Notes under the pieces: generated by a model
Database searches by the model: none
The model's input: the letters and a program-made list of their open reading frames with translations, nothing else
Told to the model about the DNA's origin: nothing
Shown here: piece by piece, positions 23,441 to 61,152 of the stretch
Layout of the letters: the number at the start of each line of letters is the position of its first letter
Numbering within the stretch: position 1 is the first letter of the stretch
Translations under genes and position numbers: made by a program
Origin: a virus
Taxonomy: Duplodnaviria > Caudoviricetes
Length of the DNA: 64,000 nucleotides
IMG/VR virus record: IMGVR_UViG_3300037418_002332
Reading direction: 5' to 3' (one strand)

Positions 23441-23658
23441 TGTTTCAAATGAATGAAAAACTACCACCTGAAATGTGGTTGCAAATTTTAGTTGCATATG
23501 TTGAAGAGAACTATAAAGAACACTTTGATACATGGGAAATTTTCACCAGAAATTATGCCAACATGGAAATTTGGCAAGAAGCATACGACGCGGACATTGA
23601 GCCTGAAGATGCTTGGGAAGACGAAATGAGTTATTGGACAGTAGGAGAAAACAGTTGA
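23437..23658 (+). CDS. acidic hypothetical protein
   Basis: ATG overlaps primase stop. Confidence 0.55.
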   Translation: MMFQMNEKLPPEMWLQILVAYVEENYKEHFDTWEIFTRNYANMEIWQEAYDADIEPEDAWEDEMSYWTVGENS

Positions 23659-24050
23659 GCGATACAGAAATTGTAGAAGGAAATTTGGAACAAGGTAATT
23701 TTGATGTGACAGAATTCAAATCAGCATTAGCTAATGGTTCGATAAATTCAGCTTTATTTCAATTCAATTTTGATAATGAGTCAACAATGCCGAACATTCC
23801 ATATTTGGCATTCAAGTATAAATTGTCCCAATCCAAGTTGAAAATTTGGTTTTATGAAACTGAAGATGGTATTTGGATTGACGGTGAAAATACTAAACTG
23901 ATTAAATTGAGTGTTTTCAAGGCTGATGGCACCAAAGCATATACAATTTCACTTGATGTTGAATTTGCGAAAGCTTCAACCAAAGGAAGTTGGGCAACTG
24001 GAAATAAGATTAAAGAATATAAGTTTACATACAGGGTATTGTCCAATTGA
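23655..24050 (+). CDS. degenerate tail-tube (gp19/gp54-like) paralogue
   Basis: FDVTEFKSALANG..SALFQF and SWATGNKIKEYKFTY resemble gp19 N- and C-terminal motifs (recalled). Confidence 0.5.
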   Translation: MSDTEIVEGNLEQGNFDVTEFKSALANGSINSALFQFNFDNESTMPNIPYLAFKYKLSQSKLKIWFYETEDGIWIDGENTKLIKLSVFKADGTKAYTISLDVEFAKASTKGSWATGNKIKEYKFTYRVLSN

Positions 24051-24904
24051 TTAGTGCTAAAATAATTCTCGGTTCTGAGTATAACGGAAAACGCATCACA
24101 ACCTTTGAATTGACATATCCACGTTTCATTCATGCTGAATTCATGACACATCGTGTATTCAGCCGAAATGCTGCCTCATCAAGAGCAATTCCGGTTCTTA
24201 AGATGTTGAAGATGATTTGGAATGATATGGCTATGCCTATCCATTGGGGTGCTAACCAATCAGGCATGCAGGCAAAGCAAGAACTTTCTCCAATGAGAAA
24301 GTGGTTCGTTCGAAAAATTTGGCGCGGTGCAGGACGAACTGCTTTGGCTGCTGCTTGGTTAATGAATAAGTTTGGTGCGCATAAGCAAATTGTTAATCGT
24401 ATAGTTGAACCATGGTCACATATCACTGTTATCATGACTACAACTGAACTTGATAATTGGTTTGAACTTCGTGATCATCCTGATGCCCAACCTGAAATTC
24501 ATGAACTCGCAAAACAAATGCGCGAAGCAGTTCGAACATATTACTATGATAAGCTCAAGGCTGATGAATGGCATTTGCCATATGTTAAAGACTATGAAAA
24601 AGCAAAGTATTCATTGTTAAAATGTATTCAAGTGTCGGTTGCGCGTTGTGCACGTGTGTCATATCTGACTCATGATGGTCAATTGTCTTTGTTTGAAAAG
24701 GATGTTCAACTTTACGAACGTCTAGTTGGATCAGTTCCACTTCATGCATCACCAGCTGAACATCAAGCTGCTCCTGTGTTGAATGCAGGTGAGAAGAAAT
24801 ATCAAGGTAACTTTTTTGGCTGGAAACAGTTTAGAAAAATTCTTGAAGAAAAGATGGCAGGCGGTAATTCAACCCTTGTTCAAACGACGTTCGCCTATAA
24901 ATAG
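24047..24904 (+). CDS. thyX: FAD-dependent thymidylate synthase
   Basis: THRVFSRNAASSRAIP, ARCARVSY, HASPAEHQA. Confidence 0.9.
   Translation: MISAKIILGSEYNGKRITTFELTYPRFIHAEFMTHRVFSRNAASSRAIPVLKMLKMIWNDMAMPIHWGANQSGMQAKQELSPMRKWFVRKIWRGAGRTALAAAWLMNKFGAHKQIVNRIVEPWSHITVIMTTTELDNWFELRDHPDAQPEIHELAKQMREAVRTYYYDKLKADEWHLPYVKDYEKAKYSLLKCIQVSVARCARVSYLTHDGQLSLFEKDVQLYERLVGSVPLHASPAEHQAAPVLNAGEKKYQGNFFGWKQFRKILEEKMAGGNSTLVQTTFAYK
24896..24903 (+). promoter_or_regulatory. T4 late promoter
   Basis: exact TATAAATA upstream of nrdA. Confidence 0.7.
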
Positions 24905-24957
24905 TGTTCCTTACAATGAGCCTGTTCATGGCTCATTTTCCATTTCCAGGAGTTTAA

Positions 24958-27255
24958 ATGTCCATAACAATCAAGAAGCGCAGTGGCGCCGACGAAATTC
25001 TACAAATTGACAAAATCCATAAACAACTTGAATTTGCCTGCGAAGGCATTCACAATGTTTCCGTTTCAGAAATCGAGTTGAGATCGGAACTACAGTTCTA
25101 CAACAACATGACGACTGAAGAAATTCAAGAAACGTTGATTAAGACAGCTGCGGATTTGATCACTGAAGAAACACCAAATTATCAATATGTTGCTTCACGT
25201 TTGATCAACTTCGATTTGAGGAAGAAAGTTTTCGGTGATACTGAACCAAAATCAATCTACGAAATCGTAAAAGCTGGTGTTGCAGCAGGGTTCTATGAAC
25301 CTGGATTGCTAGACTGGTACACTGAATCCGAATGGGATTCTATGAATCGTATGTTGAGACATGAACGTGACTTCAACATTGTTTACGCTGGAATGGAACA
25401 ATTCAGACGAAAGTATCTCGTCAAAAATAAAATCACCGACCAATACTATGAAACACCTCAAATGGTTTACATGTTGATCGCAGCAACAGCTTTCAATATG
25501 GAAGAAAAATCAAAAAGACTAAAGCTGATCAAGGAGTTTTATAATGCAGTTAGTAATTTCGACATTGGCTTGCCTACTGCTATTTTGGCTGGAGTTAGAA
25601 CTCCTATTCGCCAGTTCTCCAATTGTACTCTTATTGACGTGGGCGATAGTCTTGATTCCATTAATGCAGCTGCATCATCTATCGTCAAATACGCTAGCAA
25701 GAGAGCTGGTATTGGTTTCAACGTTGGTCGTCTTCGTGCTATTGGGTCTCCTATTCGTAATGGAGAAGTCACCCACACCGGTGTTCTTCCCTTCATTAAG
25801 TATCTCACTGCTGCATTAAAATCATGTAATCAAGGTGGCATTCGTAATGCTTCCGCAACATGTAATTTCCCAATGTGGCACTATGAATATGAAGACTTGG
25901 TTGTTTTGAAGAATAACAAGGGTGTTGAAGAAGCACGTAATCGTTCAATTGACTATGTCATTCAAATCAATCAAGTTCTACTACAAAGATTGATTGACGG
26001 CAAAGACATTACATTGTTCTCACCATCTGATGTTCCTGATTTGTATGAAGCATTTTTCAGATCAAATGCTGAATTTGAATATCTTTACAACAAGTATGAA
26101 AAAGATAAATCAATTCGTCATCGTAAGATTTCCGCATTGGAAGCTTTCAGCCAATTGATCCTTGAGCGTAAGGAAACAGGTCGTATCTATATTCAATTTG
26201 TTGATAATACCAATGAACATGGTGCATATGATAGTTCAAAGCAAATCATTACCATGACTAACCTTTGTGTTGAAATCACTCCAATCACCAAGCCTCTTGA
26301 TGATGTGAATGATCCAAATGGTATTGTTTCACTATGTACTTTGGCTTCATACAATTTGGGTAATGTAAAGACACCATCTGACTTTGAACGTATGTCTTCA
26401 ATCTTGGTTCGCTTCCTTGATAACATTCTAACATATCAAGATTATTTGCTTCCAGCTGCGAAACATTCAACTGATCTTTACAGAAACATTGGTATTGGCT
26501 TGACCAACTTGGCATATTTCCTTGCTAAGCATAACCAAAAATATACTGATGAATCAACTACTGAGTTTCTTGCTCCGTTCTTTGAAGCATACTCATATTA
26601 CACGATCAAAGCTTCAATGGAATTGGCTAAGGAACGCGGTGCTTGCTTGGGCATCGATGATACCAAATGGAAGCAAGGGTTGACTCCGGTTGATACATAC
26701 CGCAAAACTCTTGACGAATACACCAAAAACGATTTACTTCTTGATTGGAATCAGCTAAAAAGTGATTTGAAAGAGTTTGGTGTTCGTAATGCTAATCTCA
26801 TGGCACAAATGCCTAATGAGACCAATTCTCAGGTCATTAACTCAACCAACGGCATTGAACCACCGCGTTCACTAGTTTCCGTTAAGAGTTCCAAGGATGG
26901 TGCTCTTAAGCAGGTCGTGCCTGAAATTTCAAGATTGAAGAAGCGATATGAACTTCTTTGGGATCAAAAGTCTCCCGAAGGATATCTGAAAATCTGCGGT
27001 CTTTTGACTAAGTTCATTGATCAAAGTATTTCAACAAACACTTCTTACAATCCTGAGTTCTATGAAGACAAAATCATTCCTATGTCAGTGTTGATCAAGG
27101 ATTTAATTACTGCCTATCGTATGGGTATCAAGACCTTGTACTATCACCAAGAAAATGACATGGCTGGTGAAATTGAAATCAAAGCTGAAGTTCCAATCTT
27201 TGTTGAATCAACTGATTCGTTGGAAGATGAGTTCTGCGAAAGTTGTGCCATTTAA
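24958..27255 (+). CDS. nrdA: Ribonucleotide reductase class Ia alpha
   Basis: ATP cone, FSNC, NQGGIR, TNLCVE, NSTNGIEPPR, C-terminal CESCAI. Confidence 0.97.
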   Translation: MSITIKKRSGADEILQIDKIHKQLEFACEGIHNVSVSEIELRSELQFYNNMTTEEIQETLIKTAADLITEETPNYQYVASRLINFDLRKKVFGDTEPKSIYEIVKAGVAAGFYEPGLLDWYTESEWDSMNRMLRHERDFNIVYAGMEQFRRKYLVKNKITDQYYETPQMVYMLIAATAFNMEEKSKRLKLIKEFYNAVSNFDIGLPTAILAGVRTPIRQFSNCTLIDVGDSLDSINAAASSIVKYASKRAGIGFNVGRLRAIGSPIRNGEVTHTGVLPFIKYLTAALKSCNQGGIRNASATCNFPMWHYEYEDLVVLKNNKGVEEARNRSIDYVIQINQVLLQRLIDGKDITLFSPSDVPDLYEAFFRSNAEFEYLYNKYEKDKSIRHRKISALEAFSQLILERKETGRIYIQFVDNTNEHGAYDSSKQIITMTNLCVEITPITKPLDDVNDPNGIVSLCTLASYNLGNVKTPSDFERMSSILVRFLDNILTYQDYLLPAAKHSTDLYRNIGIGLTNLAYFLAKHNQKYTDESTTEFLAPFFEAYSYYTIKASMELAKERGACLGIDDTKWKQGLTPVDTYRKTLDEYTKNDLLLDWNQLKSDLKEFGVRNANLMAQMPNETNSQVINSTNGIEPPRSLVSVKSSKDGALKQVVPEISRLKKRYELLWDQKSPEGYLKICGLLTKFIDQSISTNTSYNPEFYEDKIIPMSVLIKDLITAYRMGIKTLYYHQENDMAGEIEIKAEVPIFVESTDSLEDEFCESCAI

Positions 27256-27623
27256 TGAACAATTTCGATAAAACCCAATTGACATTGCAAATGCTCGAAA
27301 AATTTGATCGGGCAATTGCTTTGGGTGGTAAACATGTTGCCACTGAATATTTGTATTCAGGATTGGGAACCCATAATCGTGATGGCACGTTAACTAAGGA
27401 ATATGGTGGTCAAAGAACAGATGATGATCACCCTGTTCATTCTAAAAAGGTAGAACCACCTGCTGCGAAAATTTCAAATCCAATTTTCACTGTTGAAATA
27501 GAACTTGAATTGGTTCAAGATTTGAAAGCAATAAGCCATCTAAATTGGAAAGATGAATTAGCAAAGGTTCTTGGTACTGAACTGGTGGTACAATACGAAG
27601 AATGGGAAAGAAACAATCCTTAA
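27255..27623 (+). CDS. small protein ending in a major-capsid (gp23) fragment
   Basis: LELVQDLKAISHLNWKDELAKVLGTEL resembles gp23 IELAQDLRAVHGMDADAELSGILATEI (recalled). Confidence 0.65.
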   Translation: MNNFDKTQLTLQMLEKFDRAIALGGKHVATEYLYSGLGTHNRDGTLTKEYGGQRTDDDHPVHSKKVEPPAAKISNPIFTVEIELELVQDLKAISHLNWKDELAKVLGTELVVQYEEWERNNP

Positions 27624-27886
27624 GAGGTACAATTATGCCTACAATCTATTTGGGTGTTTTTGGACTGGCAATCTCAATTTTTCTCGCAGTGATGAGAAAT
27701 ACTGATGTGAATGAGGAAAATAAAGATGGACAAAAAAGCGACGGCGATAACGCTGAGAGCGATCGCAGCGATGGCGGAAAAGCTGGCTGACGATCTTACT
27801 GGCAATCGTTTGTGGGAAGGCGAATTCAATGAGGCTGCATCACAAATCAAAAAGTATGCAGCCTCATTGCCAGATGAAAAAGGAAG

Positions 27887-28441
27887 ATGGTAATGAAACT
27901 TTATACAGCACCCGATGACATTTCGGAAACAAGAAAAATCAAGGGAAACTATGATTTCAAAGTTTTTCTTGGTGGCTCGATTGAAATGGGAAAGGCTGTT
28001 GATTGGCAAAATGAAGTGGTTGATTACTTCAAGCACCAAGACCGCTTAGTGCTCTTCAATCCTCGTCGTCCTGATTGGGACTCAACTTGGAAGCAAGACC
28101 CAACTCCCGGAACTCCATTTCATGAACAGGTGAATTGGGAACTTGATGCTCTCAATGATTCAGATTATGTTTTGTTCTATTTTGATCCAAACACCGTCAG
28201 TCCTATCACTTTGTTGGAATTGGGCATCTATTCACAACACAAAGATAAAGTTATCGTGGTCGTTTGTCCTCCCGATTATTTCAGGTATGGAAATGTTAAG
28301 ATCGTTTGTAATCGTGAACGACTCATCCACTTTACGTCATTGAAGCCTGCCTTGGAATGGCTTGGCACCGATATTCATGACGTTATCGCTTTGTCTGATC
28401 CAGACTATGAAGAAAAACAATTGAAGCCTTTGGAGAAATAA
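27887..28441 (+). CDS. nucleoside 2-deoxyribosyltransferase-like protein
   Basis: VFLGGSI..DWQ, QVNWE, SPITLLELG. Confidence 0.8.
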   Translation: MVMKLYTAPDDISETRKIKGNYDFKVFLGGSIEMGKAVDWQNEVVDYFKHQDRLVLFNPRRPDWDSTWKQDPTPGTPFHEQVNWELDALNDSDYVLFYFDPNTVSPITLLELGIYSQHKDKVIVVVCPPDYFRYGNVKIVCNRERLIHFTSLKPALEWLGTDIHDVIALSDPDYEEKQLKPLEK

Positions 28442-29556
28442 TGGAAATCAATGTTGACTACACCAAGAGAAAAATGTTTCTCAATGGTGACGTTTCAATC
28501 GCTCGTTATGATCAATTGAAATATCCAATGCTTGACACATTGGTCAAGCGTCAAAGAAGCTTCTTCTGGCAACCTGAAGAAATTCAAGATATTGGTCGTG
28601 ATAAATCCGACTTCAATCTTCTTCAACCTCATGAAAAGCACATTTTCGTTTCAAACCTTTTGAGACAAACGCTTTTGGATTCAATCCAAGGTCGAGCTCC
28701 TTCTGAAGTTTTCACTCCAATCACCTCAGTTCCTGAGGCTGAAATTTGGACGCAAACTTGGGCTTTCTCTGAAACAATCCATTCATATTCATACACTTAC
28801 ATTGTCAGAAATATTTTTGCCAATCCAAGTGAAGTGTTTGACAAAATGCCGTCCATTCAAGAAGTTGTAGATTGCGGTGTTGATATTTCCAAATTTTATG
28901 ATGAATTAGCAATTTACAATAAATTGGTTGATATTTATGGCTATGATGCAGATGTTGGCCATCACGAAATAACTCTCGATCCATTGAATGAGTATGAGCA
29001 TAAGAAACGTCTTTGGAAGTGTTTGATGTCAGTTAACATTCTTGAAGGCATCCGTTTCTATGTTTCATTTGCTTGCTCATGGGCTTTTGCCGAACGTAAG
29101 ACTATGGAAGGCAATGCAAAAATCATTAAGTTGATTGCGCGTGATGAAAATCTTCATCTGGCTTCAACACAATACATGCTTCGTGAATTGAAGAAAGAAG
29201 ATGCTGACTTTGCACAAATTGCAGAAGAAACTGAATCTGAATGTATTCAAATGTTCAATGAAGCTATTCGACAAGAAAAGGAATGGGCTGATTATCTGTT
29301 CAAAGATGGATCGATGATCGGGTTGAATGCAAACATTCTCAAGCAATACGTGGACTATATAGCAAAACAAAGAATGAAGGCTGTTGACCTACCTTGTGAA
29401 CTAGAAGTGAAAACCAACCCACTTCCATGGACAAATAAATGGATCGGTGGTAAGGAAGTACAAAATGCACCACAGGAAGTTAATATCACCAGTTATCAAG
29501 TTGGTGCTATTAAATCAGATCTTGATTCTGATTCCTTGAAAGGTTTCAAACTTTAA
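28441..29556 (+). CDS. nrdB: Ribonucleotide reductase class Ia beta
   Basis: FFWQPEEI, DSIQGR, ETIHSYSY, EGIRFYVSF, RDENLH, APQE. Confidence 0.97.
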   Translation: MEINVDYTKRKMFLNGDVSIARYDQLKYPMLDTLVKRQRSFFWQPEEIQDIGRDKSDFNLLQPHEKHIFVSNLLRQTLLDSIQGRAPSEVFTPITSVPEAEIWTQTWAFSETIHSYSYTYIVRNIFANPSEVFDKMPSIQEVVDCGVDISKFYDELAIYNKLVDIYGYDADVGHHEITLDPLNEYEHKKRLWKCLMSVNILEGIRFYVSFACSWAFAERKTMEGNAKIIKLIARDENLHLASTQYMLRELKKEDADFAQIAEETESECIQMFNEAIRQEKEWADYLFKDGSMIGLNANILKQYVDYIAKQRMKAVDLPCELEVKTNPLPWTNKWIGGKEVQNAPQEVNITSYQVGAIKSDLDSDSLKGFKL

Positions 29557-29783
29557 TGCCAACTGCAAATACAGTTTTAAATATCAAGCAATATTTTGAT
29601 GTAGAAAATTATGAACCAACTGTTATCTATGACAACAAAATCCATGTGGTCGGTAGATTAAAAAGAACTTACAATGATGTTGCATTTATCTATGCGCCAT
29701 ACATTCCATTGCAAATGGTTGGAGCACCAGCAAATACTGCAATAAAAACGGTTGGATTTAAAACGAGATACGGCATTGTCTGA
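29556..29783 (+). CDS. 75-aa protein carrying gp23 C-terminal block
   Basis: AFIYAPYIPLQMVGA...VGFKTRYGIV resembles gp23 AGIYYAPYVAL...MGFKTRYGI (recalled). Confidence 0.75.
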   Translation: MPTANTVLNIKQYFDVENYEPTVIYDNKIHVVGRLKRTYNDVAFIYAPYIPLQMVGAPANTAIKTVGFKTRYGIV

Positions 29784-30030
29784 GTGGCCAAAAGATACTA
29801 TCTATGATCCACAAATACATGTTATCGGACGAATTGAACAAAATCAATATGATCCAGTTTTGCTTGGCATAGTCAGAAGAACGTGGCCAACGTTGCTTGC
29901 TAATTCAATTATTGGATCGCAAAATATGATGAATCCTTCAGGACAAGTATTTTCACTGAGATCAAAATACAGTGGAGCAACTTCAAATACCCAAACAGTT
30001 ATAATAAAGGACGAAATAGATGGCGAGTGA
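29776..30030 (+). CDS. 84-aa protein carrying gp23 Gol-region block
   Basis: PVLLGIVRRTWPTLLANSIIGSQNMMNPSGQVFSLRSKY resembles PAVMGMVRRAIPNLIAFDICGVQPMNSPTGQVFALRAVY (recalled). Confidence 0.75.
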   Translation: MSEWPKDTIYDPQIHVIGRIEQNQYDPVLLGIVRRTWPTLLANSIIGSQNMMNPSGQVFSLRSKYSGATSNTQTVIIKDEIDGE

Positions 30031-30196
30031 TTATTACAGCAGAGAACTTAGACAAAGAGCAATTGAACTTGCAGTTATGGTAACACGAGATTCAACAACT
30101 GATATTAAAATTGTGTTGAGCGCTGCAAAAGAAATTGAAAAATACATCATGGATGGTGATGAAGAAAAAGCAAAGCTAGACCTACTAGAAGAGTAA
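30020..30196 (+). CDS. 58-aa hypothetical protein (not in ORF track)
   Basis: MASDYYSRELRQRAIELAVMV...LLEE*; fills gap before topoisomerase. Confidence 0.6.
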   Translation: MASDYYSRELRQRAIELAVMVTRDSTTDIKIVLSAAKEIEKYIMDGDEEKAKLDLLEE

Positions 30197-30198
30197 GC

Positions 30199-32061: not shown

Positions 32062-32385
32062 TGTGACATGGCGAATTGGTAGATTATGGATTGTTTGGAT
32101 TGGTTTACGCATGCCCATAATTTGGTGGGCATGCAAGGACTATAAACTTAGACGCATACCATCGGCATTTCGCCGATATTTTTCAATGAAATGGAATGTA
32201 ATATGCAGGGAATTCTCACTTTTCAGGTTTCGATTGATATTGGCAATGATGAATTCTGGGAAGATGTCACTCGTGCCGAAACGATTGATCTTAACATGGT
32301 ATCCGAGGAAATTCAAGATGCACTTGAAAATCGAGGATTTGAAGTAAAGGTCAAGTTCTCGGAGGCAAATCTGAGGAACTAAGTA

Positions 32386-32634
32386 ATGAAGAAGATCATT
32401 CACGTTAACAGACAATTCATCGCCAACAATGCTAAAGATGGTGGTAAGCGGCCAGTTTACACAATTAAGGCATCTGGCAAAACTCGATACGGTCGTGAAG
32501 TCATTATCAATGGTCCATCAAAACTTGTATATGATGGAACTCAATTGAAGTGCGGTGCACGTGCTTGGATTGAAACGGATAGTGATATTGAAATCGTTGA
32601 TGAAATGTCATTTTCAGAAGCAAAGGTAGCATGA
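32386..32634 (+). CDS. conserved phage hypothetical protein
   Basis: IHVNRQ...GPSKLVY...LKCGARAWIET family. Confidence 0.7.
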   Translation: MKKIIHVNRQFIANNAKDGGKRPVYTIKASGKTRYGREVIINGPSKLVYDGTQLKCGARAWIETDSDIEIVDEMSFSEAKVA

Positions 32635-32909
32635 TACAACATCTAAAATCCTGGCCAAGATACTTTGATGCTATTTTGGCAGGAACCAAAAAACATGATA
32701 TCCGTAAAATGGATCGTCGATTTGAAATTGGCGATATTATCATGTTGGAAGAATTCGATCCAAAAACATCAAATTATACAGGCCGAAAGCTGAAAGCAAA
32801 AATTACATGGATTTCATCAAGTGATGAACCTTGTTCTATTGCTGAAGATGCTTTGAGTTCTGATTTCTGCGTGTTGAGTTTGGAAGTTCAATATCAAGGG
32901 ATTGTATGA
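32631..32909 (+). CDS. DUF3850/ASCH-like protein
   Basis: HLKSWPRYFDAILAGTKKHDIRKMDRRFEIGD..LEEF. Confidence 0.8.
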   Translation: MIQHLKSWPRYFDAILAGTKKHDIRKMDRRFEIGDIIMLEEFDPKTSNYTGRKLKAKITWISSSDEPCSIAEDALSSDFCVLSLEVQYQGIV

Positions 32910-33130
32910 AGGCATACATAATTTCTAATAAAGAATGGTCTGAAAAAATTTTACTTGAAATGGGATTGAAAACTCTTTCAACCACAATTGGTGAAGCTTG
33001 GCGTCGTCATGTTGGAAATAATCATAATCCAATAGATTATCCAATCATTGTTCAACGTTGGAGTGACAAAGGTTACAAACCATTTGAAGTTGAAGTCAAT
33101 TTGGTAAAGGAAAAAAATGACAAAAGATGA
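32906..33130 (+). CDS. hypothetical protein
   Basis: overlapping-start ORF. Confidence 0.55.
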   Translation: MKAYIISNKEWSEKILLEMGLKTLSTTIGEAWRRHVGNNHNPIDYPIIVQRWSDKGYKPFEVEVNLVKEKNDKR

Positions 33131-37230: not shown

Positions 37231-37241
37231 TACACTCCTCA

Positions 37242-37310: not shown

Positions 37311-37313
37311 AGC

Positions 37314-38975: not shown

Positions 38976-39002
38976 TATAATAGGTCTGAAAGGAAAACTC
39001 GT

Positions 39003-39494: not shown

Positions 39495-39844
39495 TGTCAA
39501 TTAGAGAAAAAATTATTGAAAGTGTGAAGGAAAAATTTGTCATGACTGAATCAGTGAATTTGAAAGACTTGTCAAAAGAGCATCAACACGCTTATAAAAA
39601 TTTGAAGGCCCATCTAAATAAAATTGGATCAAAACATTCAATCAAATATGATGAACACGGCAAATCTTTGGAAGTTGCTTGGGGATATGATCATCGTAAA
39701 GACAAAAAGCTTTTGAAGAAAGAAGAAGACCTGACACAAAAGGCTTTTTATGATAAAGATTTCAAAGAAAAGAAACTGAAGAATGCCAAAGTTGGATTTC
39801 AAGCGGATATTTCCGGTCATGGAATTCATGACATAAGGGAATAA
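39494..39844 (+). CDS. probable internal head protein
   Basis: MSIREKIIE..MTE leader; basic. Confidence 0.5.
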   Translation: MSIREKIIESVKEKFVMTESVNLKDLSKEHQHAYKNLKAHLNKIGSKHSIKYDEHGKSLEVAWGYDHRKDKKLLKKEEDLTQKAFYDKDFKEKKLKNAKVGFQADISGHGIHDIRE

Positions 39845-40221: not shown

Positions 40222-40424
40222 AAAAATTCACAGAGTTCGTAACTGAAGGTAAAAATATGACAGTCAAACATACTGTTGTATACACTGACACCAATGGTCA
40301 AAAACGTGAAGTTGTCAAATATGGTATGTCAGATCAAAAGGCAATGGCTCATGTTCAGAAATTGCCTGATTTCAAAAGCCATCATCATGTTCGCACCACA
40401 ATGGTGCCTAAGCTTTCTAAGTGA
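40218..40424 (+). CDS. probable internal head protein (IP-like)
   Basis: MKKFTEFVTE resembles T4 CTS MKTYQEFIAE. Confidence 0.6.
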   Translation: MKKFTEFVTEGKNMTVKHTVVYTDTNGQKREVVKYGMSDQKAMAHVQKLPDFKSHHHVRTTMVPKLSK

Positions 40425-40869
40425 AGTGTTCACGTATTTCGGAAAGACTGGTGTAACGTTTTACATTGGTCTTTTTCCATTTATTGATTGATTCATTCAA
40501 CCAATCTTCGGATTCAAGAACTCCCACCAAAACTTGTGCTAGAACTTCACCAAAGTTCACTTCTCCTCTGGTCTTTCCCAAACAAACAATTTCTCGTTTG
40601 AAATTTTCTCGTCCATGGACTTCAACAAGCTTGTTGACTGTCTCTGAAGAACCATAATAATCCTTCCAGTCCGAGTCGAATTTGACTCGCTTCCCCTTCT
40701 TCTTCCGTGAATGTACAAAATATTTTCGGCCGATGTAACGCTTGCCAGTGGTGAGATCGGTGATGCAGTACACGAAGCCTGCATTCTTGCCGATCAGCTT
40801 CTCATCGAATGGAATACCCTTGTAAAGCCATGGAATATATAGAACGTCATCAGTAATCGTAGTCGTCAT
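40417..40869 (-). CDS. GIY-YIG family nuclease
   Basis: GFVYCITDLTTGKRYIGRK, YYGSS, FKREI. Confidence 0.85.
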   Translation of the reverse strand: MTTTITDDVLYIPWLYKGIPFDEKLIGKNAGFVYCITDLTTGKRYIGRKYFVHSRKKKGKRVKFDSDWKDYYGSSETVNKLVEVHGRENFKREIVCLGKTRGEVNFGEVLAQVLVGVLESEDWLNESINKWKKTNVKRYTSLSEIREHFT

Positions 40870-41017
40870 CTTCTTCATCCTCATCGAGTGGAACATCGTC
40901 GATACGAATTCCACAGAATGGGCAAAAGAATTCTTCCGCCGCTTCATCGCACTCATAACGGATGACAAAATCTACATCTGAACAGCTGCAGCTGCTTTCA
41001 AATTTATGTTTAGGCAC
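40850..41017 (-). CDS. 55-aa zinc-ribbon protein with acidic tail (not in ORF track)
   Basis: GTG start, GGAG SD; CSCS...CPFCG...DEDEEDDDYDY. Confidence 0.65.
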   Translation of the reverse strand: MPKHKFESSCSCSDVDFVIRYECDEAAEEFFCPFCGIRIDDVPLDEDEEDDDYDY

Positions 41018-41301: not shown

Positions 41302-41858
41302 GTTACGGAAATGTAACCGTTTTCGCTGGACCAATGTTCTGCGGAAAAACATCACATTTGCTACAACAATACATCTGGAAAAATCACGCCAAAGATTACT
41401 CGCTTCTAATCAAACCTGCTTTTGATGATCGTTATTCAATGACGGAAGTCGTTACGCATCTTGGATTGAAAGCAACTGCTGCAAATATTACAGATGCGGC
41501 AAGGATCATGGATTATTTCCAAAACGATCAATATCGAAACTTGATGATCGATGAATGTCAATTTTTCACTGCACCGCACGTTCGCGGTGACATTTTTCCA
41601 TATCTGAAACTGCTTCTCAATCGCGGTGTCAATATATACGCATCGGGACTTGATATGGATTGGATGGGCGAACCATTCGAAGTTACGGCAAAGCTTTTGG
41701 CTATGGCAGATAACGTCCATAAGCTCAAATCAGTTTGTAATTATTCAGGCAAAGAAGCCTCAAAGACATATAAAAAGAGCTTATCTGGTGGATCAGTGGA
41801 ACTTGGTGAAACTGATAAATATGAAGCCAGAAATAACGAATTTTGGAGATACGAATGA
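41298..41858 (+). CDS. tk: Thymidine kinase
   Basis: GPMFCGKT, IDECQFF, GLDMDW.GEPF, KYEA. Confidence 0.93.
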   Translation: MSYGNVTVFAGPMFCGKTSHLLQQYIWKNHAKDYSLLIKPAFDDRYSMTEVVTHLGLKATAANITDAARIMDYFQNDQYRNLMIDECQFFTAPHVRGDIFPYLKLLLNRGVNIYASGLDMDWMGEPFEVTAKLLAMADNVHKLKSVCNYSGKEASKTYKKSLSGGSVELGETDKYEARNNEFWRYE

Positions 41859-42193
41859 CCAACTTTACAAAAGAAGAAACATTGGGTGCTATCAAATGGT
41901 TTCTTCTTGATTTGACAAGAGAACAATTTGCTGAATTCAATGATAAGGAAACAAGATCAAAATTCGTTGAAGTGACAAATGAGTTTTTGGAACGTATGAA
42001 GTTTCATGAAATGATTGAAAACTATATTGTTATTTGCGATGAAACAAATAACACAGAACCTCAAATTGATGCAAATGAATTTAGATCATCGACTTATTTG
42101 AAATTTTCAAACGATCCGGAATTTACATGTTTGAATACTGTGTATGCAAGAACTGGAATTGAATTGGAGCATATAAAGGGGATGATGCCTTGA
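41855..42193 (+). CDS. stand-alone tail-sheath (gp18) C-terminal domain
   Basis: EFNDKETRSKF...YIVICDETNNTEPQIDANEF...LNTVYARTG resembles gp18 C-terminus (recalled). Confidence 0.8.
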   Translation: MTNFTKEETLGAIKWFLLDLTREQFAEFNDKETRSKFVEVTNEFLERMKFHEMIENYIVICDETNNTEPQIDANEFRSSTYLKFSNDPEFTCLNTVYARTGIELEHIKGMMP

Positions 42194-42522
42194 CATATGG
42201 ACAAGCTCTTGCCATAGACGTAAAATTACATTTATCTTTGGAATGGAATAAGCTATTCTTAGCTGAAAATTCCTCAGTAAATAGGGCGATTGTAACCTCA
42301 ACAGCCTGTTCCGTCCTTGATGGAATGGTGATGACTGATGACATTTATGATTTCAAGGTTGTTTGTGATCAAACGAACAATCTGCCTGGCGAAGATAAAA
42401 TCATTGTTGATGTTTATGTGAAACCGAAAAAAGTTGTGCAGTTTGTACATATGTCATGTGTCCTACCTGCTGATGATGGGTATATAATGGGAAGAAAAGT
42501 ATGCAGCAAGAGAGACTTGTAG
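42190..42522 (+). CDS. second stand-alone tail-sheath C-terminal domain
   Basis: IYDFKVVCDQTNN...VDVYVKPKKVVQFV. Confidence 0.75.
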   Translation: MTYGQALAIDVKLHLSLEWNKLFLAENSSVNRAIVTSTACSVLDGMVMTDDIYDFKVVCDQTNNLPGEDKIIVDVYVKPKKVVQFVHMSCVLPADDGYIMGRKVCSKRDL

Positions 42523-43052: not shown

Positions 43053-43825
43053 TTAAAGTTTTCGTGGGGACGGATGTAAACGGTGGTTGTGCTGAATGCC
43101 AGATGGTGTTTGAGTACAGCCTTCGCAAACATTCATCTGAACCTGTTGAACTAACTTGGATGAAAATTTCAGATGATCCGGCATCATTTTGGTATGGATG
43201 GAATACAGCAAGGTGGTCAACACCATTCTCAGGTTTCCGATATGGAATTGCAGAATATTGTGGATATCAAGGCAAAGCAATTTACTGTGATGACGATCAA
43301 GTTTGGCTAGACGATCCAGCGAAACTTTGGAACACAGAAATCGCATCCGATAAAATCATGACTGGAAAACAGTTGCCAAACGGTGAAATTCGCCATTGTG
43401 TCTCATTGATTGATTGTGAAAAATGGAGAACTCTTCCACCAGCCTCCAGACGTAAGGCAAATGAAAATTTCACCGAGGCATTTAAGTCCTTGACTTTCCC
43501 TAAAACACAAATTATAAGTGATTCGTGGAATTGCTACGATGGCGAGGATATGGCTTTGTCTGATATCCAATTGCTCCATCTAACAGATATGTCGTCCAAT
43601 CCGGGTGTGCATCTGGCAATCAAGCGTCTTGGTGATCAAGCCAAACATTGGTACGATGGTCCGCTTCGCGATCACCGTCGTCCTGATGTTGTGGAGTTGT
43701 TTCAACAATATTATGATGAAGCATTGGCTGCTGGCTATTCAGTTGCTGATTATATTCCAAATGAACAATTAAATTATGTGAAACAAACGCAGCGAGGATA
43801 TGCAGCGAACAATGGTTGGGAATGA
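43049..43825 (+). CDS. GT-A glycosyltransferase (GT8-like)
   Basis: IKVFVG, STPFSGFRY, AIYCDDDQ DxD motif, LLHLTDM. Confidence 0.75.
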   Translation: MIKVFVGTDVNGGCAECQMVFEYSLRKHSSEPVELTWMKISDDPASFWYGWNTARWSTPFSGFRYGIAEYCGYQGKAIYCDDDQVWLDDPAKLWNTEIASDKIMTGKQLPNGEIRHCVSLIDCEKWRTLPPASRRKANENFTEAFKSLTFPKTQIISDSWNCYDGEDMALSDIQLLHLTDMSSNPGVHLAIKRLGDQAKHWYDGPLRDHRRPDVVELFQQYYDEALAAGYSVADYIPNEQLNYVKQTQRGYAANNGWE

Positions 43826-44231
43826 CGATACTAGTCCGCGTTATGTTACCTATGATGTTGAATTTAACAACTACGAACAACAATACTATTTTGAAAATGT
43901 GTTCAATATCCTTTCAGGACGCATCGATGTAATCTTCAATATTCACAAAATGACACTGTTTAAATGTATCTATCACTACAATAGATTGCATCAAAAAGCA
44001 TTTGATTTTTGGTGTCAAAATGAAAATGAACGCGAAGAATTGAAATCCGCATATGATTATGTTTTCAAATATAAAAATGCTGAAAACAATACGGATTTGT
44101 TCAATTGGTGGGTTGCGGATTTGTCAAAACGCAGTCCAAGACGTAATTTGATTCTCTTGAGTACAAGTAAATCTTTGCTTCAAACTATGAAACCAACACT
44201 CAATGGTTTCTCATTTGTGGTTAATATGTGA
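43800..44231 (+). CDS. paralogous family member 1
   Basis: YDVEF...LFKCIYHY..FDFW. Confidence 0.6.
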   Translation: MQRTMVGNDDTSPRYVTYDVEFNNYEQQYYFENVFNILSGRIDVIFNIHKMTLFKCIYHYNRLHQKAFDFWCQNENEREELKSAYDYVFKYKNAENNTDLFNWWVADLSKRSPRRNLILLSTSKSLLQTMKPTLNGFSFVVNM

Positions 44232-44273: not shown

Positions 44274-44696
44274 ATGGCGCAACTGATGTCCTACAAATCA
44301 AAATATGTGAATGATGTTGAATGTAAGGATGAGCTTGAGGCTGAAAACTTCAAGGATGTCATAGATTTTCTTGGCCGATTGCACAATCCACCAATTCATA
44401 CATATGACTTCTTCGATGCATTATTTTTCAAAGCTTGCTATCATTATCAACGATGGAGCGGAATAATATTCAATGCTCTGGTGGAAAAAACCATTTTTGT
44501 AGGCGGACCAGCTTTCGTCTGGTATGAAGACATTTATATTCAACGCAACACAGAAAATAACACCAGATTAAGAATTAAACTGCATTTAGAAAAACCATCT
44601 TTGTCAAAAATAGATTTTATTTTGGGAACAAGTGGGGAATTTTTGGATCATTTTCATGGGCATATGATAGCAAGGGTGCGTTTGCATGAGGAATGA
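44274..44696 (+). CDS. paralogous family member 2
   Basis: NDVEC...FFKACYHY. Confidence 0.6.
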   Translation: MAQLMSYKSKYVNDVECKDELEAENFKDVIDFLGRLHNPPIHTYDFFDALFFKACYHYQRWSGIIFNALVEKTIFVGGPAFVWYEDIYIQRNTENNTRLRIKLHLEKPSLSKIDFILGTSGEFLDHFHGHMIARVRLHEE

Positions 44697-45096
44697 AGTA
44701 AGATACACTTCTTATGACATTGAGTTTGAAAGTCAAGAACAAAAAATGACATTCGAAACTGTTCTTGATATGATCACAAATGATGTACCAGGATATTATG
44801 TAATTCCAAGAATGAGGCTATTCAAGTGCACTTATCACTTGAATAGAATTTTTGGTATGGAATTTGATTTTTGGCCAATGTCTGATATTGATCGAGATAG
44901 TATGATGAAAGCATATTCATACGTATATCAAAAGAAAAATGATGCTAATGGTACAACATGTTCAAACCGTTGGCCAAACGAATATGATCGAATTAATTCG
45001 CACAACTCATTGATAATTATGAGTGAGTCCAAATTGAAGATTCAAGATTACGCATCAAACGGATTACTCAAGTGTCATAGATTTTTGGTGGAATAA
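44686..45096 (+). CDS. paralogous family member 3
   Basis: YDIEF...LFKCTYHL..FDFW. Confidence 0.6.
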   Translation: MRNEVRYTSYDIEFESQEQKMTFETVLDMITNDVPGYYVIPRMRLFKCTYHLNRIFGMEFDFWPMSDIDRDSMMKAYSYVYQKKNDANGTTCSNRWPNEYDRINSHNSLIIMSESKLKIQDYASNGLLKCHRFLVE

Positions 45097-47697: not shown

Positions 47698-48169
47698 AAT
47701 GAAAGAAGAAATTAAGTGGATTATGTTTCCTGACCATGACACAAGTTCAAAATTTTTTCAATTTTCAGAATTGATGACTGGTGTCAGGCGTAACATTTCA
47801 CCTTGTAATTTGTACTTTGAATCATTGTTTGATTTGAAAGATTTTCTCGCAAGATCGTTGTATCAAATCCATTTGCTGCTTGCCGAACACAAAATAGATT
47901 CTCGACAAATAAAGATTGAGGGTGTTGATTTCGAAAACGACACAATTTCTCAACTTATAAATTTAGTAGATGATTTTATTCTTGGTAAAAACCAAGTACC
48001 GTTCAGCGAGTGTCGCATTAAATTGTGGCACAAAAATGGGATTGGGACATTGTACCAAAATGTCAAGTTTACCGATCACATTATCATAGTTCGAGAAGAA
48101 ACAGCTTTGAATGAAATACCGTTCCCTGATGCTGAACATTTCTATCATTGCATATTGCCTAAAAGATGA
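47690..48169 (+). CDS. paralogous family member 8
   Basis: WIMF...DFLARSLYQI. Confidence 0.55.
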   Translation: MIEMKEEIKWIMFPDHDTSSKFFQFSELMTGVRRNISPCNLYFESLFDLKDFLARSLYQIHLLLAEHKIDSRQIKIEGVDFENDTISQLINLVDDFILGKNQVPFSECRIKLWHKNGIGTLYQNVKFTDHIIIVREETALNEIPFPDAEHFYHCILPKR

Positions 48170-48178
48170 AGGAGACAT

Positions 48179-48802
48179 ATGACCGCCGCATTTACTGAGA
48201 TTCAGACTGCGACTGGTGAATTTTTTGATTATGCGCATTTTTCTGAAACCGATATCCATGAAGAAGATATCGCCCATGCTTTGAGTATGATTTGCAGATT
48301 CAATGGACACTGCTTGAAATTTTACTCAGTAGCAAAGCACCTTTGTTTGGTGCATGATTTGATGGAGTACGATCGTGTCGAAATGAAAAAACCATTGACA
48401 CGTGAAGATGTTTTCCACGGACTAATTCATGATGTTGGTGAAGCATATCTCACCGATATTCCAAGACCATTGAAGAATTACTTTACACAAAGCACTGAAT
48501 TCACTGCTTTCATGGATGACTACATCGATATTGAAAATAGAATCATTGAAGGCTTTGCGCGCAAATATCCATATGGTAAACATGCGCCTCATGCGGCAAC
48601 TGTGAAATACTATGACACATGGGCTTTGTTGCTTGAACAAAAATATCTGATGACCAAAACAAAGAAGGAATGGTCAATAAGTATTGCTGATTATCCTGAT
48701 GAACCTCATTTCGTTAAAGGCATGATGAATCCATTTTTGTATGAAAAAGATTGGGCACGTGAGTTCATGAATAGATTGGAATATTACAATGAAGTTGCTT
48801 GA
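48179..48802 (+). CDS. HD-domain 5'-deoxynucleotidase (YfbR-like)
   Basis: EDIAHALSMICRFNGH, YSVAKH, LIHDVGEAYLTDIPRPLK. Confidence 0.88.
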   Translation: MTAAFTEIQTATGEFFDYAHFSETDIHEEDIAHALSMICRFNGHCLKFYSVAKHLCLVHDLMEYDRVEMKKPLTREDVFHGLIHDVGEAYLTDIPRPLKNYFTQSTEFTAFMDDYIDIENRIIEGFARKYPYGKHAPHAATVKYYDTWALLLEQKYLMTKTKKEWSISIADYPDEPHFVKGMMNPFLYEKDWAREFMNRLEYYNEVA

Positions 48803-49502
48803 CAAAGTCAAGAAATTTTTCAAGAACACTTTTCCTGAGGTCAAAATCGATCCTGAAGTTCAATCAATGGTTGATTTGGGATTGATTTCACCAACACAAG
48901 CCTCGAATGTAACGCAGGTTCCGTTTCAAATTCAAAAGATTCAAGTGACTGCTAAATCAAGAACAATGGTTGCTCAATGGAACCATGAACCTGATTTATC
49001 TGATGAATGGTATTCTGAACGATACAATTTAGATTTTAGCGAATGTCCACAATGGAACAAAGAAATTTATGCAACTGTCTACGATCACTTCGCTGATACA
49101 CAAACTTCCATGTATCCTGTAACATTGACTCGTGAGCTTCCACGTGGATCAGGCAAATCAACCTTTTTCAGAAAGTTGATTGAGAATCTCTACGAAGCCA
49201 TGAGAAATGATCCGAAGTTGATGGTGAATAAAGTTGTTTACATTGGAGCAAATACGACTCAATGCAGAGAATTTTGCAAGTATTTTCTGCAAACCCAAAC
49301 TAACAACTTTCATCAAACAGGATTTTTGGTTTGGACTGCAAATTTGGCTCAAGCTTTGGATAATTCAAAGCTTTATCCGGCTGGCAAAAACATTCTCTAT
49401 ATTTTGGATGATGCTCTCGATGATCCAAATAGCTTCACCACTCAATCAATTAAAGACCGTCATGATAAAGTTATGATAGTCAAACTTTACACACCAAGAT
49501 AA
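48789..49502 (+). CDS. chimera: gp23 fragment plus terminase-like P-loop remnant
   Basis: PFQIQKIQVTAKSRTMVAQW; ELPRGSGKST; YILDD. Confidence 0.55.
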   Translation: MKLLDKVKKFFKNTFPEVKIDPEVQSMVDLGLISPTQASNVTQVPFQIQKIQVTAKSRTMVAQWNHEPDLSDEWYSERYNLDFSECPQWNKEIYATVYDHFADTQTSMYPVTLTRELPRGSGKSTFFRKLIENLYEAMRNDPKLMVNKVVYIGANTTQCREFCKYFLQTQTNNFHQTGFLVWTANLAQALDNSKLYPAGKNILYILDDALDDPNSFTTQSIKDRHDKVMIVKLYTPR

Positions 49503-61149: not shown

Positions 61150-61152
61150 TTT

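What the first reader, a model, noticed from the sequence alone, without database searches (positions are those of the whole stretch)
23655..49502. Dispersed repertoire of mini-genes carrying isolated conserved blocks of virion and packaging proteins (candidate immune-decoy or assembly-interference system)
Seen: at least seven small ORFs in non-structural regions, each keeping one recognisable block. These are four different gp23 capsid blocks (27255, 29556, 29776, 48789), two gp18 sheath C-terminal domains (41855, 42190), a gp19-like tube (23655) and a terminase-like P-loop (in 48789). The ORFs are intact, tightly packed with neighbours and diverged mainly at amino-acid level, which suggests maintenance rather than fresh debris. 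Known: capsid, tube and terminase are triggers for defence systems (Lit via Gol, CapRel via capsid, DSR2 via tail tube, Avs via terminase/portal). Inference: the fragments are non-activating decoys for such sensors, or dominant-negative subunits against co-infecting relatives. Matches are by eye to recalled T4 sequences.
Basis: partly seen in the sequence, partly recalled or inferred. Interest (0 to 1): 0.92.

Follow-up and report, generated by a model that had tools for sequence, protein, structure and literature searches.

The report
Capsid and sheath fragment mini-genes
A soil jumbo phage carries small genes among its DNA-replication genes that each encode only one conserved piece of a T4-type capsid or tail-sheath protein; related phages keep similar pieces under selection, so they probably do something, but what is unknown.

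Summary
The window is the replication and nucleotide-metabolism arm of an uncultured soil/rhizosphere jumbo phage of the T4 superfamily. Its nearest named relatives are Sinorhizobium phage Phosso and Agrobacterium phage Atu_ph07.

Six of the seven ORFs really carry isolated virion-protein blocks:
- **Strong:** 29776-30030 matches T4 gp23 residues 89-132, the Gol region. 29556-29783 matches the gp23 C-terminal strands. 41855-42193 and 42190-42522 match the last ~90 residues of the gp18 sheath.
- **Weaker but specific:** 27255-27623 (spine helix) and 48789-49502 (strand before the spine helix, plus a terminase-like P-loop).
- **Unsupported:** the "gp19-like" ORF 23655.

Thirty neighbouring small ORFs hit no virion family. 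No small ORF is a fragment of the window's own large genes.

Relatives (Phosso, three IMG/VR genomes, weakly Atu_ph04) carry similar isolated blocks. T4, GAP32, RaK2 and S-SM2 do not. In the relatives, synonymous sites are saturated while the block's amino acids are kept, which indicates purifying selection.

Most likely these are exapted partial paralogues that mimic their parent's binding surface. The decoy and dominant-negative readings stay untested. Other first-stage notes of this scan on the same genome flagged the same ORFs.

The parts
29776..30030 (+). 84-aa ORF (TTG start 5 nt before the stop of the preceding ORF; the stop-to-stop frame opens at 29746). It encodes the gp23 N-arm/'Gol' block only.
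   Evidence: PF07068 positions 3-48, E 8.4e-12. T4 gp23 residues 89-132, E 2.9e-6. 50% identity to T4 gp23 90-131. Coding score is positive only in this frame.
29556..29783 (+). 75-aa ORF whose ATG overlaps the nrdB stop (TAATG). It encodes the gp23 C-terminal P-domain strands, ending at the GFKTRYG motif.
   Evidence: PF07068 positions 301-349, E 3.7e-7. T4 gp23 residues 445-479, 43% identity. It shares the leader IYD..IHV.GR with ORF 29776, with pS 0.77 and pN 0.21.
27255..27623 (+). 122-aa ORF directly after nrdA. Its C-terminal ~30 aa resemble the gp23 spine-helix block; its N-terminal 85 aa match nothing.
   Evidence: PF07068 positions 153-183, E 0.016; phrog_138 E 0.011. T4 gp23 residues 272-301, 37% identity. 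Weak.
48789..49502 (+). 237-aa orphan ORF. Residues 37-67 resemble the gp23 strand just before the spine helix. Residues ~88-237 are a P-loop NTPase domain, possibly like the terminase large-subunit ATPase.
   Evidence: PF07068 positions 127-157, E 0.016; phrog_2 E 0.0015. Atlas leads to short Terminase_6N clusters. No homologue among 1.84 billion representatives.
41855..42193 (+). 112-aa stand-alone copy of the last ~90 residues of a T4-type tail sheath (conserved C-terminal domain including the C-terminal arm). It has a good RBS.
   Evidence: PF17482 E 8.7e-7; phrog_23 E 1.1e-11. T4 gp18 residues 571-657 of 659, ungapped. AF2 model pLDDT 80.7; best Foldseek matches are T4, KP1, pyocin, AFP and PVC sheaths.
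42190..42522 (+). 110-aa second, strongly diverged stand-alone sheath C-terminal domain. It is translationally coupled to the first (TTGA overlap).
   Evidence: phrog_10581 E 2.3e-7; PF17482 E 0.033. It keeps the VVCD.TNN core in alignment A1. 24 of 96 residues are identical to ORF 41855.
23655..24050 (+). 131-aa ORF proposed as a gp19-like tube paralogue. This is not supported, and the ORF is listed only because the finding names it.
   Evidence: No family hit at E<=1. No link to T4 gp19. AF2 pLDDT 39.6. Coding score is positive.
40417..40968 (-). SegE-like GIY-YIG homing endonuclease gene, 0.9 kb upstream of the tk and mini-sheath array. This is context and a possible mobilising agent.
   Evidence: PF19835 SegE_GIY-YIG E 5.8e-36; homing-endonuclease PHROGs.

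Best explanation
These are old partial paralogues of a T4-type major capsid protein (gp23) and tail sheath (gp18) that have been exapted as small, separately translated proteins. They sit inside the early/middle-type operons for ribonucleotide reductase, topoisomerase and thymidine kinase.

Each keeps one interaction-competent element of its parent and lacks everything needed to build a capsid or a sheath:
- the N-arm/Gol segment;
- the C-terminal P-domain strands;
- the spine helix;
- the strand before the spine helix;
- the sheath C-terminal domain with its C-terminal arm.

The most likely mode of action is competitive mimicry. The mini-protein occupies the site that normally binds that element, but cannot polymerise or signal. 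That site could be a neighbouring subunit, EF-Tu in the case of the Gol segment, or a host sensor of capsid or sheath.

**Shown:** homology; intact, coding-like ORFs; restriction to virion-protein sources; recurrence in relatives; purifying selection in relatives.

**Inferred:** that the window's own copies are functional, that they act by mimicry, and what the target is.

My ranking within mimicry is: anti-abortive-infection or EF-Tu/Gol competition about 0.2, interference with assembly of co-infecting T4-like phages about 0.2, other new functions about 0.15.
For: **Homology and extent.** establish the matches.

**Specificity.**
- 0 of 30 neighbouring small ORFs hit virion families.
- No fragments of the window's own 17 large genes occur among its 86 small ORFs.
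- In relative G004, only 6 partial paralogues exist among 742 ORFs. Two come from the capsid gene, plus a third found by HMM.

**Recurrence.** Isolated Gp23 blocks occur in:
- Phosso (N-block and C-block);
- IMG/VR genomes G001 and G004 (strong), G003 and G005 (weak);
- Atu_ph04 (weak).

An isolated sheath C-domain occurs in G003. None occur in T4, GAP32, RaK2 or S-SM2.

**Selection.**
- G001 versus G004 N-block genes: pS 0.73 (saturated), pN 0.42 overall and 0.31 in the block.
- Fragment versus own capsid gene in G001 and G004: 57-60% amino-acid identity, but only 6-9 identical codons among 21-22 conserved residues.
- The window's shared leader motif: pS 0.77, pN 0.21.
- The G003 mini-sheath is 78% identical in DNA to its own sheath, with mostly synonymous change.

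**Gene-like features.** Coding score is positive only in frame. RBSs and coupled starts are present.

**Literature.** The Gol region of gp23 is the most conserved part of gp23 and binds EF-Tu domains II/III (PMC3014915).
Against: - No orthologue of any window mini-gene exists in 5.8 billion clustered proteins or 1.84 billion representatives. Selection on the window's own copies is therefore inferred from relatives and from one 12-codon motif.
- The phage's own gp23 and gp18 lie outside the window and could not be fetched. Recent neutral decay from the phage's own genes cannot be formally excluded for the window copies.
- The universally conserved GVQPM motif is altered to GSQNM in the window's N-block, which could mean relaxed constraint.
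- ORFs 29776 and 42190 have only marginal coding scores (0.05-0.08 bits per codon) and non-ATG starts.
- Contexts differ between phages, so several copies may have arisen independently. That is also what a recurrent mutational process would give.
- The G003 mini-sheath carries a Tat-like signal peptide. That fits a new periplasmic role better than cytoplasmic mimicry.
- A Gol peptide alone activates Lit in E. coli (PMC3014915), so a Gol-like mini-protein could harm rather than help.
Confidence: 0.5

Rival explanations
1. Immune decoys. The fragments bind capsid-, sheath- or terminase-sensing abortive-infection proteins (Lit-type protease with EF-Tu, CapRel, Avs) non-productively and so shield the late virion proteins.
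For: - The N-block is exactly the Gol region (PMC3014915).
- The fragments sit among early/middle-type genes, have a patchy distribution and turn over fast, as accessory arms-race genes do.
- Source proteins (capsid, terminase-like ATPase, and a weak PolB motif-B-like tail in G004) overlap the known targets of Avs sensors (bioRxiv 10.64898/2026.01.04.697583).
Against: - No binding or phenotype data exist, and I found no precedent in the literature searches.
- The Gol peptide alone and truncated Avs targets are reported to activate their sensors.
- In G001 and G004 the fragments resemble consensus T4-type capsid proteins (60-72% identity) more than their own capsid protein (57-60%). That is the wrong direction for shielding the phage's own protein.
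- These source proteins are also simply the most conserved phage proteins, which are the easiest to recognise as fragments.
Confidence: 0.2
2. Dominant-negative assembly poisons aimed at co-infecting T4-like phages, or at host tailocins or T6SS. A fragment holding a polymerisation interface caps or disrupts the competitor's capsid or sheath, while the phage's own diverged proteins are spared.
For: - Both parent proteins polymerise, and the retained pieces are interface elements. The sheath piece reaches the very C-terminus.
- The window's N-block is closer to T4 gp23 (50%) than to the capsid proteins of its nearest relatives' clade (37-46%).
- The window's mini-sheath aligns without gaps to T4 gp18, whereas it is only 20-26% identical to that clade's sheaths.
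Against: - The window phage's own capsid and sheath sequences are unknown.
- 40-aa pieces of an HK97-fold protein may not bind stably.
- The G003 copy appears to be exported.
- There are no experimental data.
Confidence: 0.18
3. Non-functional debris. These would be remnants of partial duplications, of a decayed second capsid/sheath module, or of flanks carried along by homing endonucleases or introns, still open by chance in a hyperplastic region.
For: - A SegE-like homing endonuclease lies 0.9 kb from the mini-sheaths.
- In T4, segD lies between genes 23 and 24. A junction of the gene 23 3' end with the start of a second capsid gene would give the observed order, C-block then N-block.
- The window copies are orphans.
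- PHROGs holds short 'major head protein' families that end in the N-block (phrog_12830), perhaps pieces of split genes.
Against: - Saturated synonymous sites with retained amino acids in relatives and in the window's leader motif.
- In-frame codon usage adapted to the phage.
- Coupled starts.
- No Rfam intron in the window.
- No comparable fragments of non-virion genes.
Confidence: 0.2
4. Virion-targeting tags or minor virion components. The capsid-derived peptides direct the small proteins, or domains fused to them, into the prohead or onto the tail by co-assembly.
For: In G004 a glutaredoxin directly after nrdB starts with the capsid protein's own N-terminal peptide (MSKLFES.W..ATK.AL.E). 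The peptide is kept with different serine codons, so the conservation is at protein level. T4 internal proteins use N-terminal capsid-targeting sequences (established knowledge).
Against: The window's ORFs are little more than the block itself, with no cargo domain except in 48789. They lie among replication genes, with late-promoter-like TATAAATA at only two sites in the window.
Confidence: 0.08

Closest known systems
Gol region of T4 gp23 (Gol-Lit-EF-Tu exclusion system)
   Same: ORF 29776 aligns to T4 gp23 residues 89-132 at 50% identity. That covers the short, most conserved stretch that binds EF-Tu and licenses Lit cleavage (PMC3014915). The residue numbers 93-122 for Gol come from my own knowledge.
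   Different: Here the segment is a free-standing 84-aa gene among replication genes, not part of the capsid protein. The GVQPM core is changed to GSQNM. EF-Tu binding and any Lit-type partner are untested.
gp23/gp24 paralogy in T4 (full-length capsid paralogue)
   Same: Duplication of the capsid gene with divergence and a new role.
   Different: gp24 is a complete HK97-fold protein. These are 30-50-aa blocks in unrelated or minimal contexts. The relatives searched have a single full-length Gp23 hit and no gp24.
Conserved C-terminal domain of contractile sheaths (PF17482), with the sheath-initiator and terminator proteins that dock on it (gp25/TssE, gp15)
   Same: ORFs 41855 and 42190 are that domain, by sequence and predicted fold. 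Small proteins that plug into the sheath lattice are an established principle.
   Different: They are truncated sheath copies, not gp25- or gp15-family proteins. They sit next to thymidine kinase rather than in the tail module. There are two diverged tandem copies.
Genes in pieces and flank co-conversion by free-standing homing endonucleases in T4-like phages (split nrdA of Aeh1, T4 genes 39/60, segD between genes 23 and 24)
   Same: Fragments of conserved genes lie near nrd, topoisomerase and tk genes, with a Seg-type endonuclease nearby.
   Different: The pieces are not collinear parts of one working gene. The blocks are diverged at synonymous sites.
Capsid-assembly hijackers of phage satellites (P4 Sid, SaPI CpmB, PLE TcaP)
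   Same: Small proteins that bind a capsid protein to alter or block assembly of a competitor.
   Different: Those are not derived from the capsid protein itself and belong to satellites, not to the phage.

Membership tests
Major capsid protein Gp23 (PF07068) | Sequence match above the curated Pfam cut-off (24.4 bits) | tested here: met
   ORF 29776: 45.6 bits. ORF 29556: 30.3 bits. ORFs 27255 and 48789 score only 15.1 bits each, below the cut-off.
Major capsid protein Gp23 (PF07068) | Complete HK97-type fold (N-arm, E-loop, P- and A-domains) able to form capsomers | tested here: not met
   Each ORF covers only 30-50 of the 376 model positions: 3-48, 127-157, 153-183 and 301-349. The ORFs are homologous fragments, not capsid proteins.
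Gol peptide (Lit activator / EF-Tu ligand) | Corresponds to the Gol stretch of T4 gp23 | tested here: met
   Ungapped alignment to T4 gp23 residues 89-132, 21 of 42 identical.
Gol peptide (Lit activator / EF-Tu ligand) | Binds EF-Tu domains II/III and enables Lit cleavage | not testable with these tools
   This needs biochemistry or genetics.
Tail sheath C-terminal domain (PF17482) | Sequence match above the cut-off (26.9 bits), and the fold | tested here: met
   ORF 41855: 29.4 bits, T4 gp18 residues 571-657, AF2 pLDDT 80.7 with sheath proteins as best Foldseek hits. The model's alignment contained sheath homologues. ORF 42190 is below the Pfam cut-off (14.7 bits) but hits phrog_10581 at 2.3e-7.
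Functional tail sheath protein (gp18-like) | N-terminal arm and the domains preceding the C-terminal domain | tested here: not met
   The ORFs are 110-112 aa and match only the last ~90 residues of a 659-aa sheath.
Tail tube protein (gp19-like) | Profile or fold similarity to tube proteins | tested here: inconclusive
   ORF 23655 has no Pfam or PHROG hit and no phmmer or jackhmmer hit from T4 gp19. T4 gp19 also failed to find the tube protein of relative G004, so that test is insensitive. The AF2 model was unusable.
Terminase large subunit ATPase | Walker A/B ATPase domain with a TerL-specific profile match, followed by a nuclease domain | tested here: inconclusive
   A P-loop (GSGKS) is present. 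phrog_2 gives E 0.0015 over 68 profile positions. Generic AAA hits are comparable. Atlas offers leads only. There is no nuclease domain.
Anti-defence decoy | Binds an immune sensor without activating it and rescues infection | not testable with these tools
   No host, sensor or assay is available.

The most novel reading that the evidence does not exclude
A clade of soil jumbo phages encodes a repertoire of stand-alone 'epitope' mini-proteins. These comprise a free Gol-like EF-Tu-binding peptide, capsid P-domain pieces, sheath C-terminal domains and a terminase-like ATPase. In relatives the capsid pieces (N-block, C-block) and a possible polymerase motif are displayed on a repeated FKLTW scaffold. 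The mini-proteins would act as competitive inhibitors of host sensors, or of EF-Tu/Lit-type recognition, that detect the most conserved phage proteins. That would be a trigger-mimic class of anti-defence.
Probability: 0.18. Interest if true: 0.85.

Novelty: new variant of a known kind. Interest (0 to 1): 0.6.

Why it matters
It has been an open question for over two decades why the Gol stretch is the most conserved part of T4-type capsid proteins, and whether its EF-Tu binding serves the phage. Free-standing, selected copies of exactly that stretch give a handle on the question, and one carrier, Phosso, is cultured: delete or express the mini-gene without touching the essential capsid gene.

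More generally, small proteins made from single interface elements of capsid and sheath would be a simple, evolvable route to molecular mimicry. That could serve against host sensors or against rival phages. It would also change how tiny "hypothetical" ORFs in large phages are read.

If they prove inert, they still record how partial copies of virion genes spread and persist in jumbo genomes.

Tried and rejected
- **Whole genome of the window:** not held.
- **Window DNA or mini-ORF in collections:** the exact DNA pattern is absent from IMG/VR. The mini-ORF has no relative in IMG/VR or JGI metagenome contigs.
- **The look-up of encoding contigs:** not on record for P0001. For nrdB it found Logan contigs but no DNA. 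The phage's own gp23 and gp18 could therefore not be compared.
- **Searching with the Atu_ph07 capsid protein for the window's own capsid protein:** 8000 hits, none identifiable as this phage's.
- **Small homologues:** none for ORFs 29752 or 41855 in 5.8 billion clusters. ORF 48789 is an orphan in 1.84 billion representatives, and its one marginal hit (P0125) is an unrelated PPR protein.
- **Complex prediction of ORF 29776 with Agrobacterium EF-Tu residues 200-391:** no verdict, score 0.00, partner fold uncertain. This is not evidence either way.
- **AF2 of ORF 23655:** pLDDT 39.6, not searched further.
- **Sequencing runs:** no RNA holder listed. Contigs of four soil runs are identical to the window, so no population variants were available for pN/pS.
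- **Rfam:** no intron or ribozyme, only tRNAs.
- **Megablast to GenBank phages:** no match.
- **The search for related loci with the G004 N-block protein:** the 79 matches other than the query's own locus all lie in full-length capsid genes, or ones cut by the locus end; no further mini-genes.
- **gp24 origin of the N-block:** no support, since T4 gp24 gave no hit while gp23 did.
- **A Pfam hint of an NrdA fragment in a G004 ORF:** rejected. That stretch looks more like PolB motif B, and only weakly.
- **Literature searches for capsid-fragment genes or trigger decoys:** nothing specific.

Full report
**What the window is.** Large ORFs on the + strand encode:
- DNA polymerase, UvsX, gp41-type helicase, gp46/47-type exonuclease, and primase;
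- ThyX, NrdA, NrdB, and both topoisomerase II subunits;
- thymidine kinase, a dNMP phosphatase, and an endolysin.

The topoisomerase large subunit is 55-59% identical to those of Sinorhizobium phage Phosso (469 kb), Agrobacterium phage Atu_ph07 (490 kb) and five IMG/VR contigs, four of them 417-517 kb and one a 182-kb fragment. It is about 46% identical to RaK2/GAP32-type phages. There is no near-identical DNA in GenBank phages. The sequence occurs in Logan assemblies of soil and rhizosphere metagenomes, and the contigs of four soil runs laid on it are identical to it. The window is therefore the replication and nucleotide-metabolism arm of an uncultured soil jumbo phage of the T4 superfamily. 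The virion genes lie outside it, and no whole genome is held.

**Check of the observation.** Profile searches of the seven named ORFs confirm four clearly.
- ORF 29776-30030 carries Gp23 model positions 3-48 (E 8e-12).
- ORF 29556-29783 carries positions 301-349 (E 4e-7).
- ORF 41855-42193 is a Phage_sheath_1C domain (Pfam 9e-7, PHROG 1e-11).
- ORF 42190-42522 hits a sheath PHROG at 2e-7.

Against solved structures, ORF 29776 aligns to T4 gp23 residues 89-132. ORF 41855 aligns without a gap to T4 gp18 residues 571-657 of 659. An AlphaFold2 model of ORF 41855 has pLDDT 80.7; its alignment included sheath homologues. Its best Foldseek matches are the T4, KP1, pyocin, AFP and PVC sheaths.

Two further capsid blocks are weak:
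- ORF 27255 matches positions 153-183;
- ORF 48789 matches positions 127-157;
- E is about 0.01-0.016 in both libraries, below Pfam's cut-off, and a clade-specific HMM did not recover them.

Because those E-values already carry a factor of about 25,000-39,000 models, the match to the one predicted family stays unlikely by chance, even over all 683 six-frame ORFs. I treat these two blocks as probable.

The P-loop of ORF 48789 is a generic NTPase with a slight preference for terminase ATPase (phrog_2 at 0.0015; Atlas leads). The protein has no homologue in 1.84 billion representatives.

The "gp19-like" ORF 23655 has no support.

**Specificity.**
- None of 30 other small ORFs between 23 and 52 kb hits a virion family at E<=0.05.
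- Self-comparison finds no small ORF that is a fragment of any of the window's 17 large proteins.
- In the complete relative G004, only six partial paralogues exist among 742 ORFs. Two derive from the capsid gene, and an HMM adds a third.
- The enrichment for virion-protein pieces is therefore real and does not come from a general litter of gene fragments.

**Gene-like properties.**
- All mini-ORFs are open and abut or overlap their neighbours: TAATG with nrdB at 29556, TTG five bases before the preceding stop at 29776, TTGA at 42190.
- ORFs 41855, 42190 and 23655 have good Shine-Dalgarno sequences.
- A codon-usage score trained on 16 long genes is positive in frame and negative out of frame for every one. 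It is marginal for 29776 and 42190.
- Late-promoter-like TATAAATA occurs at only two sites in the window, and the ORFs sit inside tight arrays with nrd, topoisomerase and tk genes. From this I infer co-expression with these genes.

**What the blocks are.**
- T4 gp23 residues 93-122, read from NC_000866, are the stretch I know as the Gol peptide. The residue numbers come from my own knowledge.
- The review PMC3014915 states four things. A 29-residue region of gp23 defines Gol. It binds EF-Tu domains II/III and inhibits the EF-Tu GTPase. It licenses cleavage by the Lit protease. It is the most conserved part of gp23.
- ORF 29776 is 50% identical to T4 gp23 over residues 90-131.
- From general knowledge of the HK97 fold (not tested here), the four capsid blocks correspond to the end of the N-arm with the first E-loop strand, the returning E-loop strand, the spine helix, and the C-terminal P-domain strands. 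Together these are the P-domain/E-loop shell, without the A-domain.
- These are also the most conserved blocks, so they are the only ones a short fragment would still reveal.

**Relatives.** Searching whole records with PF07068 finds the full capsid gene in each record. It also finds these isolated blocks.

| Genome | Isolated block | Evidence |
|---|---|---|
| Phosso | N-block in a 226-aa ORF; C-block in a 126-aa ORF | |
| G001 | N-block, E 2e-12 | |
| G004 | N-block, E 1e-15; weak C-block | |
| G003, G005 | weak spine-helix block (G003); weak block just before the spine helix (G005) | |
| Atu_ph04 (a different family) | weak N-block ORF right after its nrd and glutaredoxin-like genes | |
| G003 | 115-aa mini-sheath | |
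| T4 | only gp23 and gp24 | |
| GAP32, RaK2, S-SM2, Atu_ph07 | only the capsid gene | |

**Evidence for selection.**
- In G001 and G004 the isolated N-block is 57-60% identical in protein to the genome's own capsid protein. Only 6-9 of 21-22 conserved residues use the same codon.
- Between the two orthologous mini-genes, pS is 0.73 (saturated). pN is 0.42 overall and 0.31 in the block.
- The C-block ORFs of G004 and Phosso share their local context and 10 of 13 residues.
- The G003 mini-sheath is 78% identical in DNA to G003's own sheath, mostly through synonymous change, so it is a younger, independent duplication.
- In the window, ORFs 29556 and 29776 share a 12-residue leader (IYD..IHV.GR) with pS 0.77 and pN 0.21.
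- These data argue for protein-level maintenance. For the window's own copies the argument is indirect, because they have no orthologues and the phage's own gp23 and gp18 were out of reach.
- An earlier first-stage note says that a full gp23 lies about 45 kb upstream and matches the N-block at 20 of 41 residues. I could not check this.

**Origin.**
- The fragments keep T4-consensus residues, such as P.G.[IV]F.[LM]R and YAPY, where the Atu_ph07-like capsid proteins have derived states (PVAQIHTLR and YCPY).
- G004's block is 60-72% identical to ordinary T4-like capsid proteins.
- Either the copies predate those changes, or they came from another T4-like lineage, or an external conserved partner holds them to the consensus.
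- The order C-block then N-block is what a junction between the end of one capsid gene and the start of a second would give. T4 has segD exactly there, and a SegE-like endonuclease lies 0.9 kb from the mini-sheaths. Homing-endonuclease-assisted spread is therefore a reasonable origin, but it does not explain the retention.

**Mechanism.**
- I favour exapted partial paralogues acting by mimicry of their parent's binding surface (confidence about 0.5).
- I cannot separate the sub-cases: competition at EF-Tu/Gol or at capsid- or sheath-sensing defences (about 0.2), poisoning of rival T4-like assemblies (about 0.2), and other new roles.
- The Tat-like signal peptide on G003's mini-sheath, and the glutaredoxin of G004 that begins with the capsid protein's N-terminal peptide encoded by different serine codons, show that such pieces can be put to varied uses.
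- Neutral debris keeps about 0.2.

**Novelty and verdict.**
- Literature searches found no description of capsid- or sheath-fragment genes or of trigger-mimic decoys in phages.
- The phenomenon is a new variant of a known kind: paralogy and domain exaptation.
- It has an unusually suggestive member, a free Gol-region gene.
- It is testable in the cultured phage Phosso.

Noticed in passing
L011, L012, L013, L015, L001 (relatives, between the two topoisomerase genes) and about 50 ORFs of G004: Relatives carry a very large family of ~90-130-aa ORFs in tandem arrays. Each ends in the motif ..F.....DA..FKL.WGG. The family has no Pfam match and is absent from the window. The three G004 members with long tails after the motif carry a capsid N-block, a capsid C-block and a weak PolB motif-B-like stretch.
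   Followed up: partly
G004 259626-260009 (L050:19626-20000, - strand): The glutaredoxin (PF00462) directly downstream of nrdB begins with the capsid protein's own N-terminal peptide (MSKLFES.W..ATK.AL.E). It is encoded with different serine codons and has no upstream DNA similarity, so the peptide is conserved at protein level. Capsid-derived ORFs also follow nrd genes in the window and in Atu_ph04. This association is unexplained.
   Followed up: partly
L035:1480-1815 (- strand), relative G003: A 112-aa stand-alone sheath C-terminal domain starts with a textbook twin-arginine-like signal peptide (MKRRQFF...AFA). This suggests export.
   Followed up: no
window 40417-40968 (-): SegE-like GIY-YIG homing endonuclease (PF19835, E 6e-36). 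It is the only minus-strand gene in this stretch and is followed by a 613-bp gap before ORF 41038.
   Followed up: partly
window 55813-63671 (+): Seven tRNA genes by Rfam, five of them clustered at 62.8-63.7 kb.
   Followed up: no
window 43800-44231 and 44686-45096 (+): This is the only clear paralogue pair inside the window (37% identity over 115 aa, E 4e-25). Neither has a family match.
   Followed up: no
window 49512-50468 (+): A 318-aa protein with a capsule-polysaccharide-biosynthesis-like domain (PF05159, E 2e-12) sits next to the endolysin gene.
   Followed up: no
window 26761 / 39831: One low-depth contig of run X5 joins 26761 to 39831. It skips 13 kb, including nrdB, the capsid mini-genes and topoisomerase, with 35 other letters in between. 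The shorter side is only 21 letters, so it may be an assembly artefact or another organism.
   Followed up: no
window 24047-24904 (+): The thymidylate synthase is of the flavin-dependent ThyX type (PF02511; phrog_85), not the ThyA type of T4.
   Followed up: no
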